Shown: piece after piece, positions 36,001 to 39,000 of the stretch
How the letters are laid out: each line of letters starts with the position of its first letter
Numbering within the stretch: position 1 is the stretch's first letter
Assembly: GCF_022846255.1 (NCBI RefSeq)
Contig: NZ_AP025682.1
From: Escherichia coli
GTDB taxonomy: Bacteria; Pseudomonadota; Gammaproteobacteria; Enterobacterales; Enterobacteriaceae
Length of the DNA stretch: 64,000 nucleotides
Direction: 5' to 3' (one strand)
Position numbers: made by a program

Positions 36001-39000
36001 TTAAGTTCTCACGGCGTGTTGTTAGGTATTTTAGGGTTTTTTATTATAACCGTGTTGTCATCACGTCATTTTCATGCCGCGGTGCTTGTTTCTATTGTGG
36101 TGACGTCTTGCTGTGGATTGTTTTTCGGTGATGTTCATTTTAGCGGCGTCTATTCCATTCCGCCTGATATTAGCGGCGTCATTGGTGAAGTGGATTTGAG
36201 CGGTGCGTTATCACTTGAACTCGCCGGTATCATTTTCTCCTTTATGCTGATCAACTTATTTGATTCATCAGGGACATTAATTGGTGTGACTGATAAAGCT
36301 GGCTTAATAGATAGTAACGGTAAATTCCCCAATATGAATAAGGCGCTGTATGTTGATAGCGTCAGTTCGGCGGCGGGTGCGTTTATCGGTACCTCGTCTG
36401 TTACCGCCTATATTGAAAGTACTTCAGGTGTGGCTGTCGGTGGTCGCACGGGGCTGACGGCTGTCGTAGTTGGCGTTATGTTCCTGTTAGTTATGTTCTT
36501 CTCACCGCTGGTGGCGATGGTTCCTCCTTACGCAACCGCCGGAGCGTTAATCTTTGTTGGCGTGCTGATGACTTCAAGCCTGGCGCGCGTTAACTGGGAT
36601 GATTTTACCGAATCGGTGCCTGCGTTTATTACCACGGTGATGATGCCCTTTACTTTCTCGATCACCGAAGGGATTGCACTAGGCTTTATGTCGTACTGCA
36701 TCATGAAAGTGTGCACCGGGCGCTGGCGCGATCTGAACCTGTGTGTGGTGGTGGTCGCAACTCTGTTTGCACTGAAGATTATTCTGGTGGATTAGTAACT
36801 GGCGAGGGTTTCCAGATATCATGAGTTCTGATTACGCAGGAGAACTCATGATCTGGATAATGCTCGCCACGCTGGCGGTAGTGTTTGTGGTTGGTTTTCG
36901 GGTGCTGACATCCGGGGCCAGAAAAGCGATTCGCCGTCTCAGCGATCGGCTGAACATCGATGTCGTACCCGTGGAGTCGATGGTCGATCAAATGGGAAAG
37001 TCAGCCGGTGACGAATTTTTACGTTATTTGCATCGCCCGGATGAGTCGCACCTGCAAAACGCCGCGCAGGTGTTGCTCATCTGGCAAATTGTCATTGTCG
37101 ATGGTAGCGAACAGAACCTGCTGCAATGGCATCGGATTTTACAAAAAGCCCGCCTTGCCGCGCCGATTACTGATGCTCAGGTCAGGCTGGCGCTGGGTTT
37201 TCTGCGCGAAACCGAACCTGAAATGCAGGATATCAATGCTTTTCAGATGCGCTATAACGCGTTCTTTCAGCCTGCCGAGGGCGTTCACTGGCTGCATTAA
37301 AACCGTTTCGTCTTATCAGCCTACAGACCGCGCCTGACCTGGTGGGTGGATAAGGCGTGTACGTCGCATCCGGTATCGGAATTGACAGTAGGTGAACGCA
37401 TTATCTACGTTCTATTTACAGCAGCACCTCCAGCCCGTGTTTTTGCACAATGCTGAGCAGTTTTAATGAAATGCCATTGGGGCGTTTAGCGCCACTTTCC
37501 CATTTTTGTACAGTTGAAACGCTGGTATTGAGATAGTGAGCGAAGACGGGCTGACTCACTTTTAATTTTTCCCGCAGTGCTTTTATCTCAACAGGTTGTA
37601 AGTCTTGCACGCTGGTCAGGCAGGCTTTGTCGAAAGTACGCATCGTTTCGGCAGAAATAGCATCGACGCTGGACAATCCAGCCGCTGCGCTGTGAATAGC
37701 TTCAAATGCAGGACTTTTAAATTTAGTTTTTGCAGTCATAGCAGATCTCTGTCAGTTCTTTAGTGTTAATCATTGCTGTCAGTTGGGCTTTCGTCAGGAA
37801 GGCATAATGCTTTGCAAGTTCACGAAACCCAGCCAGTTCCTGACTATTAATGTTCGACATATCCTGTTTTGCATATAAAAACGTGTAAAACCAATTGCTT
37901 CCCCCTTTCGCCAGAATAATTGCACGCTCACGATTTTTGTGAAGGCGCTTTTTAAAAACGCCACCACCAAGTACATCAGCTTTACCTTGTTCCGTTTCTA
38001 AAATGGCCCGGCACAACTCTTCATCTGTTATTGCATGAGACCTGGCTTCCCTTGCAAACCATTTGGTTTTAAACACGCGCATATCGTTGAGATCCTGTTA
38101 TTAAAGTATATCACCAAGTGCAATACTTTATCCCTTATTCCCAACCTAATCGCGAAAATGCATATCACCTTGCCCTATGGTTTTTATTTCTTCGAGCAGC
38201 CTCGAACTTTTCCCACAACACCGTAAAAGTTGCAAAAACGTTAAATACGTCACACATTTCAATGTTAAAGTGGTCGGCTTTCCCTCTGAAACATGCCACG
38301 GGTAACACCATGAGTGAATTTATTGCTGAAAACCGCGGCGCGGATGCCATCACCCGACCGAACTGGTCAGCCGTTTTCTCGGTGGCGTTTTGCGTCGCCT
38401 GTCTGATTATCGTTGAGTTTTTGCCTGTCAGTTTGTTGACGCCAATGGCCCAGGATTTAGGCATTTCGGAAGGGGTTGCCGGGCAATCGGTGACCGTGAC
38501 CGCCTTTGTGGCGATGTTTGCCAGTTTGTTTATTACCCAGACTATTCAGGCCACTGACCGCCGCTACGTTGTCATTCTGTTCGCCGTTTTGCTGACGCTT
38601 TCCTGTTTGCTGGTTTCCTTTGCCAACTCATTCAGTCTGCTGTTAATCGGTCGCGCCTGTCTGGGGCTGGCGCTGGGCGGGTTCTGGGCGATGTCGGCGT
38701 CGCTGACCATGCGTCTGGTACCGCCGCGTACGGTGCCGAAGGCGCTGTCGGTGATCTTCGGCGCGGTTTCTATTGCGCTGGTGATTGCCGCGCCGTTGGG
38801 CAGTTTTTTAGGCGAGCTTATCGGTTGGCGCAATGTCTTTAATGCGGCGGCGGCGATGGGCGTGCTGTGTATTTTCTGGATTATCAAATCACTGCCTTCG
38901 CTGCCAGGTGAACCTTCGCATCAGAAACAAAATACTTTCCGCTTATTACAACGTCCGGGAGTGATGGCCGGGATGATCGCCATCTTTATGTCCTTTGCCG

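What the first reader, a model, noticed from the sequence alone, without database searches (positions are those of the whole stretch)
37416..38082. Two-gene toxin-antitoxin-like module inserted between yicN and nepI
Two small overlapping genes on the minus strand, a 119 aa basic protein followed by a 107 aa protein with a C-terminal XRE-type HTH, sit where (from memory) K-12 has yicN and nepI directly adjacent. The toxin-first order, 17 nt overlap and sizes fit HigB/HigA-like or RelE/ParE-XRE type II modules. Such modules are often abortive-infection or island-stabilising elements, and this one is not among the K-12 toxin-antitoxin systems I can recall.
Basis: partly seen in the sequence, partly recalled or inferred. 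Interest (0 to 1): 0.65.

Follow-up and report, generated by a model that had tools for sequence, protein, structure and literature searches.

The report
Known HigB2/HigA2-type toxin–antitoxin gene pair
The two small overlapping genes are a real, already-annotated toxin–antitoxin pair of the HigB2/HigA2 type, and rather than being inserted here it is an old resident of this chromosomal spot that K-12 and about two thirds of E. coli strains have lost.

Summary
Two minus-strand ORFs, 38082..37723 (119 aa) and 37739..37416 (107 aa), overlap by 17 nt between yicN and nepI. K-12 has only a 210-bp gap there.

The 119-aa protein is a full-length member of Pfam PF06296 (E 5.5e-41). [quoted passage not shown] The 107-aa protein is a HigA2-like antitoxin and is 55% identical to the validated Coxiella AntitoxP.

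In 80 of 80 related loci the toxin gene is followed directly by this antitoxin gene. A TAGCAC-N3-GTGCTA inverted repeat overlapping a −10-like element precedes the toxin in 70 of 78 loci.

RefSeq already annotates the pair, which is present in 1716 of 5426 complete E. coli genomes. "Inserted" has the direction wrong. The pair sits at the same nepI/yicN position in Salmonella, Citrobacter and Klebsiella. It has diverged about as much as nepI within Escherichia. K-12 keeps a 17/19-nt scrap of the toxin gene.

I found no evidence for a phage-defence or island role. Toxicity, mRNA cleavage and operator binding are inferred, not shown. The finding is ordinary and of low interest.

The parts
37723..38082 (-). 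Toxin gene (119 aa): HigB2-type member of Pfam PF06296, RelE/ParE superfamily
   Evidence: ORF. PF06296 match is full length, E 5.5e-41. AlphaFold2 model has pLDDT 89.7. The Foldseek top 11 PDB hits are all VcHigB2 chains. K44, R46, R53, Y70 and K72 align with VcHigB2 K49, R51, R64, Y82 and K84 (the VcHigB2 residues come from PMC5416850 and PMC10098735). It is 31% identical to Coxiella ToxP over the full length.
37416..37739 (-). Antitoxin gene (107 aa): conserved N-terminal segment (about residues 5-45, presumed toxin-binding) plus C-terminal XRE helix-turn-helix domain (residues 52-96)
   Evidence: Pfam HTH_3 E 1.2e-7 and MqsA C-terminal-like E 1e-5. Best PDB sequence match is VcHigA2, E 8e-10. 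The C-terminal domain superimposes on VcHigA2 at 1.0-1.5 A rmsd with 37-40% identity. It is 55% identical over the full length to Coxiella AntitoxP. A homologue lies directly downstream of the toxin in 80 of 80 loci.
37723..37739 (-). 17-nt overlap of the toxin 3' end and the antitoxin 5' end (probable translational coupling)
   Evidence: Coordinates. The same 17-nt overlap occurs in 41 related loci and in the Salmonella, Citrobacter, Klebsiella, Dickeya, Yersinia and Pantoea loci.
38109..38123 (-). Candidate operator: imperfect inverted repeat TTGCAC-TTG-GTGATA (family consensus TAGCAC-N3-GTGCTA); the extended imperfect palindrome spans 38102-38130
   Evidence: Inverted repeat I2. It is conserved in eight genera while the sequence further upstream is unalignable. 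The CAC-N3-GTG core lies upstream of the toxin in 70 of 78 loci across Alpha-, Beta- and Gammaproteobacteria. Coordinates. Protein binding was not tested.
38105..38113 (-). Putative extended -10 promoter element TGaTATACT, overlapping the right arm of the operator
   Evidence: Read from the sequence. The position is conserved in alignment A3. The consensus scanner did not report it, probably because there is no good -35, so this is inference. VcHigA2's operator likewise extends over the -10 element (PMC11006873).
38093..38096 (-). Ribosome-binding site AGGA, 10 nt before the toxin ATG
   Evidence: Within the invariant block CAGGAT in alignment A3. Coordinates.
37305..37375 (.). REP pair (BIME-like) after yicN. 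It is shared with K-12 and marks the left edge of the segment that K-12 lacks. It is context, not part of the module.
   Evidence: Inverted repeat I1. Sub-threshold match to the REP-derived naRNA4 family at 37344-37409 (27 bits against a gathering score of 59.5). Alignment with K-12.
37980..37998 (-). The part of the toxin gene (codons for E-T-E-Q-G-K) that survives as a 17/19-nt remnant in K-12's short allele
   Evidence: Local alignment is in the same orientation. Only 5 of 2000 shuffles score as high. The K-12 remnant reads I-E-T-E-Q-G-K-D against the toxin's I-L-E-T-E-Q-G-K-A-D.

Best explanation
This is a chromosomal type II toxin-antitoxin operon of the HigB2/HigA2 kind. By analogy with studied relatives, the toxin and antitoxin are made from one autoregulated transcript, toxin first, with translation coupled through the 17-nt overlap. 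The 119-aa toxin is a RelE-fold endoribonuclease that enters the ribosomal A site and cuts translating mRNA, using K44, R46, R53, Y70 and K72. The 107-aa antitoxin dimerises through its C-terminal XRE helix-turn-helix domain and neutralises the toxin with its N-terminal segment, which folds onto it. The antitoxin, alone or with toxin, represses the operon by binding the single inverted repeat that overlaps the -10 element at 38105-38123. Shown here: family membership, fold, conservation of the active-site residues, strict pairing of the two genes, a conserved operator/promoter block and purifying selection. Inferred, not shown: toxicity, mRNA cleavage, neutralisation and DNA binding. In evolutionary terms the module is an old resident of the nepI-yicN interval in Enterobacteriaceae. 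It survives in about 32% of E. coli genomes and has been deleted in K-12-like genomes.
For: Toxin: PF06296 match is full length, E 5.5e-41. VcHigB2 itself falls in PF06296. The model has pLDDT 89.7, and the 11 best PDB fold matches are all VcHigB2 (TM 0.44-0.62). All VcHigB2 active-site residues align with conserved residues here. Across 77 homologues K44, R46 and R53 are invariant, K72 is K in 76, and position 70 is Y in 51 and F in 26. The mutational evidence for those VcHigB2 residues is in PMC5416850.

Antitoxin: HTH_3 match. Best PDB sequence hit is VcHigA2. The DNA-binding domain superimposes at 1.0-1.5 A. It is 55% identical over its full length to Coxiella AntitoxP, and the toxin is 31% identical to ToxP. 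In that system the toxin was shown to block translation, and the antitoxin binds both the toxin and the promoter (PMC10098735).

Operon logic: 80 of 80 species-representative loci have the antitoxin directly downstream, and 41 share the 17-nt overlap. The only conserved upstream DNA is the palindrome, -10 and SD block. The palindrome core is present in 70 of 78 loci. VcHigA2 has the same single-repeat-over-the--10 layout (PMC11006873). In the toxin-linker-antitoxin model, antitoxin residues 10-40 form helices with pLDDT 90-95.

Selection: pN/pS is 0.07-0.25 for both genes. In four related loci the toxin ORF is broken while the antitoxin still matches over its full length, as expected if the toxin is harmful.

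History: the same nepI/yicN position occurs in Salmonella, three Citrobacter species, seven Klebsiella species and a cryptic Escherichia lineage. Synonymous divergence is similar to nepI within Escherichia. K-12 keeps a remnant. Among complete E. coli genomes, 1716 carry the module, always as one chromosomal copy, and 3668 carry the K-12-type allele.
Against: Nothing here measures toxicity, RNA cleavage or DNA binding. Sequence similarity to the solved VcHigB2 is weak. Neither phmmer nor a family profile finds it in the PDB, and hhalign gives E 0.004 at low probability, so the residue equivalences rest on a short alignment plus the fold match. This sub-branch lacks six residues of the basic beta2-beta3 loop; replacing that loop in VcHigB2 lowered activity 120-fold. 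It also has a C-terminal helix-strand extension with an invariant Glu112 that VcHigB2 lacks. The E. coli operator departs from the family consensus at two positions, and the Escherichia toxin sits on a long branch (70% identity to other genera against 80% among them), so activity or regulation may be weakened. I could not obtain coordinates for the complex model, so toxin-antitoxin contacts were not verified. A RelE-fold toxin need not be an RNase: SehA of Salmonella is reported to act by inhibiting RNase III (PMC12817084).
Confidence: 0.82

Rival explanations
1. The E. coli copy is an attenuated or domesticated relic. The 107-aa protein would work mainly as a transcription factor, possibly also acting on the divergent nepI gene 227 bp away. 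The 119-aa protein would have little or no nuclease activity.
For: The beta2-beta3 loop is shortened relative to VcHigB2 and ToxP, and that loop contributes 120-fold to VcHigB2 activity. The E. coli operator is degenerate. The Escherichia branch is long. The module is dispensable, being absent from 3668 genomes. Linkage to nepI is stable over four genera.
Against: The active-site residues are conserved. Toxin pN/pS is 0.15-0.25, so it is still under constraint. The short loop is shared by the whole enterobacterial clade and many other lineages, including copies that are spreading horizontally, so it is not a sign of local decay. nepI functions in K-12 without the pair. The DNA nearest nepI, 38216-38309, is shared with K-12 and lies outside the module.
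Confidence: 0.1
2. The pair's main role is anti-phage defence by abortive infection, or stabilisation of a genomic island.
For: Toxin-antitoxin modules of the RelE/ParE superfamily are discussed as defence elements (PMC11980606). In Pantoea vagans the cassette sits beside a DNA methyltransferase, a helicase-type gene, an HNH nuclease gene and a transposase fragment. Relatives lie on plasmids, where such modules stabilise the replicon.
Against: The toxin has no PADLOC match, and the antitoxin has only weak generic HTH matches. No genuine phage carries it. In E. coli the neighbours are housekeeping genes (adeQ, yicN, nepI, yicS) with no integrase, transposase or defence genes. The locus looks vertically inherited. 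This rival concerns biological role and does not contradict the molecular mechanism above.
Confidence: 0.06
3. The toxin keeps the RelE fold but acts on a different target, for example by binding another protein as reported for SehA and RNase III, or by poisoning gyrase as ParE does.
For: Members of the superfamily have different targets (PMC11980606; PMC12817084). This clade has a C-terminal extension with an invariant Glu112 that VcHigB2 lacks.
Against: SehA belongs to a different family: it is of the YgjN-type HigB kind, has a different topology and lacks RelE-like active-site residues. The protein here keeps the RelE/HigB2 active-site set. Coxiella ToxP has the same C-terminal extension and inhibits translation. 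There is no Pfam match to ParE (PF05016).
Confidence: 0.04

Closest known systems
Vibrio cholerae HigB2/HigA2 (VCA0468/0469; PDB 5JAA, 5JA8, 5J9I, 8A0X)
   Same: Same Pfam family for the toxin (PF06296). Closest solved fold for both proteins. Equivalent active-site residues. Toxin-first order. The antitoxin has an N-terminal neutralising segment and a C-terminal XRE domain. A single inverted-repeat operator extends over the -10 element.
   Different: The toxins are only about 20-24% identical in the fold alignment. The beta2-beta3 loop is six residues shorter here, and there is an extra C-terminal helix and strand. The operator is TAGCAC-N3-GTGCTA rather than TGTACGC-N5-GCGTACA, and the base-contacting residues of the recognition helix differ. 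The V. cholerae system sits in the superintegron (title of Christensen-Dalsgaard and Gerdes 2006, from my own knowledge), whereas this one sits in a core-genome interval.
Coxiella burnetii QpH1 plasmid ToxP/AntitoxP (CBUA0028/CBUA0027)
   Same: Closest experimentally tested relative. The antitoxin is 55% identical over its full length, including the N-terminal segment. The toxin is 31% identical over its full length, including the C-terminal extension. It has the same gene order and overlapping genes. It was shown to be toxic, to inhibit translation, to be neutralised by direct binding, and to bind its own promoter.
   Different: It is plasmid-borne. ToxP keeps the long basic loop (GKGKRGG) that the E. 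coli protein lacks.
E. coli K-12 HigB/HigA (YgjN/YgjM) and Salmonella SehA/SehB
   Same: Toxin-first order, RelE/ParE superfamily toxin, HTH antitoxin.
   Different: A different toxin family. There is no Pfam match other than PF06296. The fold match to E. coli HigB is poor (TM about 0.31, E 0.06). SehA has an alpha1-3/beta1-3/alpha4 topology, lacks RelE-like catalytic residues and is reported to inhibit RNase III. It carries a different locus tag (STM14_4845) from the nepI-linked Salmonella copy examined here.
MqsR/MqsA
   Same: The antitoxin's C-terminal HTH resembles that of MqsA (Pfam MqsA_antitoxin E 1e-5; TIGR03830 E 1.3e-10). Toxin-first order.
   Different: The score is below the family cut-off (41.1 against 61.8 bits), and only the C-terminal part of the model is matched, so the zinc-binding CxxC N-terminal domain is absent. 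The toxin is not MqsR.

Membership tests
HigB2/HigA2-type type II toxin-antitoxin (toxin Pfam PF06296) | Toxin sequence matches PF06296 over its full length | tested here: met
   E 5.5e-41, 140 bits, model positions 1-120 of 120. VcHigB2 matches the same model.
HigB2/HigA2-type type II toxin-antitoxin (toxin Pfam PF06296) | RelE/ParE-type (BECR) fold | tested here: met
   The model has pLDDT 89.7 and pTM 0.84. The top 11 Foldseek PDB hits are VcHigB2, followed by other HigB, RelE, YafQ, YoeB and ParE toxins. This is a prediction, not a solved structure.
HigB2/HigA2-type type II toxin-antitoxin (toxin Pfam PF06296) | RelE-like active-site residues (VcHigB2 K49, R51, R64, Y82, K84) | tested here: met
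   They align with K44, R46, R53, Y70 and K72. In 77 homologues they are 77/77, 77/77, 77/77, Y51/F26 and 76/77. The pairwise alignment is weak (hhalign probability 7.9%), but it agrees with the fold match.
HigB2/HigA2-type type II toxin-antitoxin (toxin Pfam PF06296) | Partner with a C-terminal XRE helix-turn-helix dimerisation and DNA-binding domain | tested here: met
   HTH_3 at residues 52-96. VcHigA2 is the best PDB sequence hit. Rmsd is 1.0-1.5 A to the VcHigA2 C-terminal domain.
HigB2/HigA2-type type II toxin-antitoxin (toxin Pfam PF06296) | N-terminal antitoxin segment that binds and neutralises the toxin | tested here: inconclusive
   The N-terminal segment is conserved (S9, A14 and H16 invariant in 26 pairs) and is alignable with AntitoxP. 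It forms helices with pLDDT 90-95 in the fusion model. No coordinates or contact data were available, and there is no sequence similarity to the VcHigA2 N-terminus.
HigB2/HigA2-type type II toxin-antitoxin (toxin Pfam PF06296) | Toxin-first bicistronic operon with a strictly linked partner | tested here: met
   17-nt overlap. The partner is directly downstream in 80 of 80 loci.
HigB2/HigA2-type type II toxin-antitoxin (toxin Pfam PF06296) | Autorepression through an inverted repeat overlapping the promoter | tested here: inconclusive
   A conserved inverted repeat overlapping a -10-like element is present. Binding and repression cannot be tested with these tools.
HigB2/HigA2-type type II toxin-antitoxin (toxin Pfam PF06296) | Toxin arrests growth and the antitoxin rescues it; ribosome-dependent mRNA cleavage | not testable with these tools
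   This needs expression and in vitro translation assays. It is shown only for the relatives VcHigB2 and ToxP.
YgjN-type HigB (PF09907) / SehA | Sequence and fold of YgjN-type HigB | tested here: not met
   No Pfam hit besides PF06296. E. coli HigB structures match at TM about 0.31 with E 0.06-0.24. The SehA topology and key residues differ.
MqsA-family antitoxin (TIGR03830) | Score above the curated cut-off and an N-terminal CxxC zinc domain | tested here: not met
   41.1 bits against a cut-off of 61.8. Only profile positions 47-119 are matched.
NadS family (NF041265) | Score above the curated cut-off | tested here: not met
   41.3 bits against a cut-off of 60.
Known anti-phage defence systems (PADLOC-DB 2.0) | Match of either protein to a defence-system model | tested here: not met
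   Toxin: 0 families. Antitoxin: only weak HTH-region matches to RmrA and HTH_VI, E 5.6e-6 or weaker.

The most novel reading that the evidence does not exclude
The nepI-linked copy could be more than a selfish addiction module. It has stayed at one core-genome position in Escherichia, Salmonella, Citrobacter and Klebsiella under purifying selection, yet it is a presence/absence polymorphism within E. coli. That pattern would fit a host-level function, for instance stress-dependent translation control coupled to the divergently transcribed purine-nucleoside exporter nepI. Alternatively the short-loop, C-terminally extended clade may have an altered substrate or target compared with VcHigB2.
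Probability: 0.1. Interest if true: 0.45.

Novelty: already known. Interest (0 to 1): 0.15.

Why it matters
It matters little beyond bookkeeping. The pair adds one more type II toxin-antitoxin module to the non-K-12 E. coli repertoire. It is carried by O157:H7, O145:H28 and ST131 strains among others, and it is already labelled correctly in RefSeq. The modestly useful points are evolutionary:
- It is a clean example of a toxin-antitoxin module that is an old, position-stable chromosomal resident lost by deletion in K-12-like genomes, rather than a recent insertion.
- Its family has an unusually well-conserved operator (TAGCAC-N3-GTGCTA) across three proteobacterial classes.
- As far as I could find, the E. 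coli copy has not been tested experimentally, so it would be an easy system for a laboratory that wants an enterobacterial HigBA2 model.

Tried and rejected
1. SehAB of Salmonella as the orthologue. I rejected this. SehA is a YgjN-type HigB with a different topology and a different locus tag, so its RNase III mechanism does not transfer.

2. Direct sequence links from the toxin to solved structures. Neither phmmer nor a 40-sequence profile found anything at E up to 1. The link to VcHigB2 came only from Pfam, hhalign and the fold search.

3. NCBIfam gave no family for the toxin, and PADLOC gave none either.

4. Phage carriage. The single 'phage' hit is a 515-kb Salmonella contig filed in the wrong collection. 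The two best 'plasmid' hits are chromosomes of 4.9 and 5.4 Mb.

5. E. coli HS-02 as an intermediate decay state. The copy is frameshifted and 77% identical. However, its middle part is homopolymer-rich and 65-70% identical while its flanks are 94-100% identical. It may be an assembly artefact, so I did not use it as evidence.

6. The search for related loci with the 40-sequence alignment failed because the alignment was too diverse. I repeated it with 15 closer sequences.

7. Complex modelling by fusing toxin and antitoxin gave confident helices in the antitoxin N-terminus. No coordinates are returned, so contacts could not be measured.

8. The consensus promoter scan did not find the proposed promoter. 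The -10 assignment rests on conservation and on an extended -10 motif read by eye.

9. Literature searches for yicN or nepI together with toxin-antitoxin, and for the RefSeq accessions, found no study of this locus.
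Full report
**1. The observation**

The window holds two minus-strand ORFs exactly as described. One runs from ATG 38082 to TAA 37723 (119 aa). The other runs from ATG 37739 to TAA 37416 (107 aa). They overlap by 17 nt.

The left neighbour is yicN (DUF1198), ending at 37300. The right neighbour is nepI, starting at 38310. Both are on the plus strand. The yicN-nepI gap is 1009 bp here and 210 bp in K-12 MG1655. MAFFT misplaced the second REP copy, so I fixed the boundaries by pairwise alignment. The left flank, including a REP pair, is shared up to about 37375, and the nepI-proximal flank is shared from 38216.

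Both proteins are basic, with pI 9.35 and 9.56. These are real genes. The exact protein sequences are recorded from at least 1000 contigs each, and both are under purifying selection.

**2. What the proteins are**

The 119-aa protein matches Pfam PF06296 ('RelE') end to end, with E 5.5e-41. NCBIfam and PADLOC have no model that matches it.

PF06296 is the family that a 2025 review of the RelE/ParE superfamily lists under the names HigB2, RelE, RelE/ParE and StbE. The review describes it as ribosome-dependent mRNA degradation with toxin-first gene order (PMC11980606). I confirmed that Vibrio cholerae HigB2 falls in PF06296 (E 3.3e-8). I first recalled the VcHigB2 sequence from memory and verified it as identical to PDB chain 5JA9_C.

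Sequence searches of the PDB with the toxin or with a 40-sequence profile found nothing. An AlphaFold2 model built on that alignment is confident (pLDDT 89.7, pTM 0.84). Its eleven best Foldseek matches among solved structures are all VcHigB2 chains (TM 0.44-0.62). Other HigB, RelE, YafQ, YoeB and ParE toxins follow.

A profile-sequence alignment places K44, R46, R53, Y70 and K72 opposite VcHigB2 K49, R51, R64, Y82 and K84. Alanine substitutions of R51, R64, Y82 and K84 lowered VcHigB2 activity 170- to 3000-fold (PMC5416850). In 77 homologues, K44, R46 and R53 are invariant. K72 is lysine in 76. Position 70 is always aromatic, Tyr in 51 and Phe in 26.

The protein differs from VcHigB2 in two ways. 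The basic beta2-beta3 loop is six residues shorter. There is also an extra C-terminal helix and strand carrying an invariant Glu112.

The 107-aa protein has an XRE-type helix-turn-helix at residues 52-96 (Pfam HTH_3). It has a sub-threshold resemblance to the C-terminal domain of MqsA. Its best match among solved structures is VcHigA2 (E 8e-10). In the fusion model its C-terminal domain superimposes on the VcHigA2 DNA-binding domain at 1.0-1.5 A with 37-40% identity.

**3. The closest tested relative**

tblastn against plasmids found relatives at 50-57% identity on plasmids of rhizobia, Legionella, Pseudomonas and others. It also found 19 Coxiella records.

The Coxiella QpH1 pair CBUA0028/CBUA0027 (ToxP/AntitoxP) has been characterised. 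The toxin arrests growth and inhibits translation. The antitoxin rescues growth, binds the toxin and binds the promoter (PMC10098735).

The window's antitoxin is 55% identical to AntitoxP over its whole length, N-terminal segment included (E 7e-37). The toxin is 31% identical to ToxP over its whole length, C-terminal extension included (E 4e-18).

**4. Operon logic across relatives**

A scan of one genome per species found 485 loci encoding a relative, and 80 were fetched.
- All 80 have a homologue of the antitoxin immediately downstream. Of these, 78 are essentially full length, and the two short matches lie close to the end of the fetched stretch.
- The 119/107-aa lengths and the 17-nt overlap recur in 41 loci.

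Upstream of the toxin gene, only the last 50 nt or so are conserved among eight genera. This block contains:
- an inverted repeat with consensus TAGCAC-N3-GTGCTA;
- a TGnTATAcT extended -10-like element overlapping the repeat's right arm;
- an AGGA ribosome-binding site.

The CAC-N3-GTG core is found upstream of the toxin in 70 of 78 loci, from Gamma-, Beta- and Alphaproteobacteria. In the window the repeat is TTGCAC-TTG-GTGATA at 38109-38123, which departs from the consensus at two positions. The -10-like element is at 38105-38113 and the AGGA is at 38093-38096.

VcHigA2 likewise recognises a single inverted repeat that extends over the -10 element. Its sequence and spacing are different, and so are its base-contacting residues (PMC11006873; alignment).

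I also modelled a toxin-linker-antitoxin fusion with a paired alignment of 26 loci. Antitoxin residues 10-24 and 30-40 come out as helices with pLDDT 90-95. This fits a segment that folds on the toxin. The tool gives no coordinates, so I could not check contacts.

**5. Inserted or lost?**

In E. coli the locus is dimorphic.
- 1716 of 5426 complete genomes carry the pair. It is always a single copy, always chromosomal, and 95-100% identical, apart from one doubtful 77%-identical copy (HS-02).
- 3668 genomes carry the K-12-type short allele.
- Carriers include O157:H7, O145:H28 and O25b:H4-ST131. K-12, IAI1 and UTI89 have the short allele, so both alleles occur within phylogroup B2. The phylogroup assignments are from my own knowledge of these strains.

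Four lines of evidence say the pair is ancestral here and was deleted in K-12-like genomes.

(i) The same arrangement recurs widely. The toxin is divergent from a NepI orthologue, with the antitoxin next to a YicN orthologue. It occurs in C. koseri, C. freundii, C. amalonaticus and K. oxytoca. It also occurs in K. michiganensis, K. grimontii, K. indica and K. pneumoniae. K. spallanzanii shows the yicN side only, and Salmonella has the NepI orthologue but no yicN on the other side. An unnamed Enterobacteriaceae genome and a cryptic Escherichia lineage have it too.

(ii) Within Escherichia, synonymous divergence of the pair (pS 0.12-0.26) is about that of nepI next door (0.19-0.29).

(iii) The 45 bp or so that are specific to K-12 contain a 17/19-nt match to the toxin gene. 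It is in the same orientation and reads I-E-T-E-Q-G-K-D against the toxin's I-L-E-T-E-Q-G-K-A-D. Only 5 of 2000 shuffles score as high. This is short and only suggestive on its own.

(iv) There are no integrase or transposase genes near the pair in the window, and no flanking direct repeats.

The nepI-linked copies differ from one another by 22-36% at the protein level, as expected for old residents. Copies at other positions in Dickeya, Erwinia, Edwardsiella and Pectobacterium are 92-97% identical across three families, so a mobile lineage of the same cassette also exists. The Escherichia toxin sits on a long branch (70% identity to other genera against 80% among them).

**6. Mechanism and rivals**

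The best-supported mechanism is a classical HigBA2-type module. It would work through a ribosome-dependent mRNA endonuclease, neutralisation by the antitoxin's N-terminal segment, and autorepression through the HTH dimer on the operator over the -10 element.

Family membership, fold, active-site conservation, gene pairing, the conserved operator block and selection are shown here. Toxicity, cleavage, neutralisation and DNA binding are inferred from VcHigBA2 and ToxP/AntitoxP.

I considered three rivals.
- An attenuated or domesticated copy. The short loop, the degenerate operator and the long branch speak for it. Conserved catalytic residues, pN/pS of 0.15-0.25 and the wide distribution of the short-loop form speak against it.
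- A defence or island-stabilising role. There is no PADLOC match, no phage copies and no island in E. coli.
- A non-RNase target, as reported for SehA. SehA belongs to another family and lacks the catalytic residues, whereas ToxP, which shares the C-terminal extension, inhibits translation.

**7. Comparison with what is known, and verdict**

RefSeq already names the two genes 'type II toxin-antitoxin system RelE/ParE family toxin' and 'helix-turn-helix domain-containing protein' or 'DNA-binding transcriptional regulator'. The family has solved structures and two experimentally characterised members.

I found no paper on this particular E. coli locus, but nothing about it departs from the known kind. 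Novelty: already known. Interest: low.

Noticed in passing
window 38080-38082 versus 38074-38076: RefSeq starts the toxin at the GTG two codons downstream (117 aa, e.g. WP_122988444.1). The ATG at 38082 and Arg2 are conserved across genera, and the AGGA lies 10 nt upstream of the ATG, so the 119-aa form looks like the correct start.
   Followed up: partly
window 37305-37409: A REP pair (BIME-like) lies between yicN and the antitoxin gene, with a sub-threshold match to the REP-derived naRNA4 family (27 bits against 59.5). K-12's deletion boundary lies directly at the end of this REP pair, so REP-associated rearrangement may have caused the loss.
   Followed up: partly
window 38157-38169: A second copy of the operator's right arm (GGTGATATGCATT, compared with GGTGATATACTTT) lies 54 nt further upstream of the operator. 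It could be a weak second half-site or chance. I did not check it in other genera.
   Followed up: no
window 38190-38205 and alignment A3 columns about 25-40: A short inverted repeat, TTCGAG-GCTG-CTCGAA, lies in the nepI-toxin intergenic region. Similar GCGnAGCTGCTCGCA-like sequences occur in the nepI-linked loci of Salmonella, K. oxytoca and C. freundii. It might be a regulatory site for nepI. It lies in the part that K-12 lacks.
   Followed up: no
L082-L095 (Acetobacteraceae loci): Fourteen loci (L082-L088, L091-L095) from at least seven genera (Acetobacter, Gluconacetobacter, Gluconobacter, Acidomonas, Asaia, Endobacter, Brytella) share an identical 62-nt upstream sequence and a 128-aa toxin ORF. 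This indicates very recent horizontal spread of one cassette.
   Followed up: no
L013, L020, L023, L030 compared with L003, L029, L056: Copies away from nepI in Dickeya, Erwinia psidii, Edwardsiella ictaluri and Pectobacterium are 92-97% identical at the protein level across three families. The nepI-linked copies are only 64-78% identical to each other. So a mobile lineage and a resident lineage of the same cassette coexist.
   Followed up: partly
L032, L049, L051, L069: In Mixta theicola, Lonsdalea quercina, Candidatus Pantoea formicae and Winslowiella iniecta the toxin ORF is cut short (44-98 aa), while the antitoxin still matches over 107 aa. This is the decay pattern expected when the toxin is the harmful partner.
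   Followed up: partly
L098 (E. coli HS-02, NZ_CP172818.1): The same locus carries a 77%-identical copy annotated as a frameshifted toxin, with no antitoxin called. The middle of the region is homopolymer-rich and 65-70% identical, while the flanks are 94-100% identical. It is either a decayed allele or an assembly artefact.
   Followed up: partly
L097 (E. coli SC434, NZ_LR778142.1): An independent deletion runs from just after yicN into nepI, leaving nepI as a pseudogene that lacks its N-terminus. The interval therefore seems prone to deletions.
   Followed up: no
L018 and L057: Two 1-kb contigs in a 'Collinsella sp.' metagenome-assembled genome carry this module. One is E. coli-like (with a 100%-identical yicN fragment). 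The other is K. pneumoniae-like. They are probably binning contamination.
   Followed up: no
hits H101, H102 (plasmid collection) and H126 (phage collection): Records of 4.9 Mb (E. coli) and 5.4 Mb (K. pneumoniae) in the plasmid collection are chromosomes. A 515-kb Salmonella Infantis contig sits in the phage collection. Counts from those collections need this correction.
   Followed up: yes
window 39541-40874 compared with L002 6242-7810: The strain with the best match to the module (FHI_NMBU_03, 99.9-100% identity) has a KdgM-family porin gene and a TRAP transporter gene beyond yicS. The window has nlpA there, as K-12 does. The window therefore comes from a different genomic background than its best module match.
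   Followed up: no
window 37416-37739: The antitoxin is as basic as the toxin (pI 9.56 against 9.35). In every comparison it is also more conserved than the toxin (for example 80% against 69% identity between E. coli and Salmonella).
   Followed up: partly
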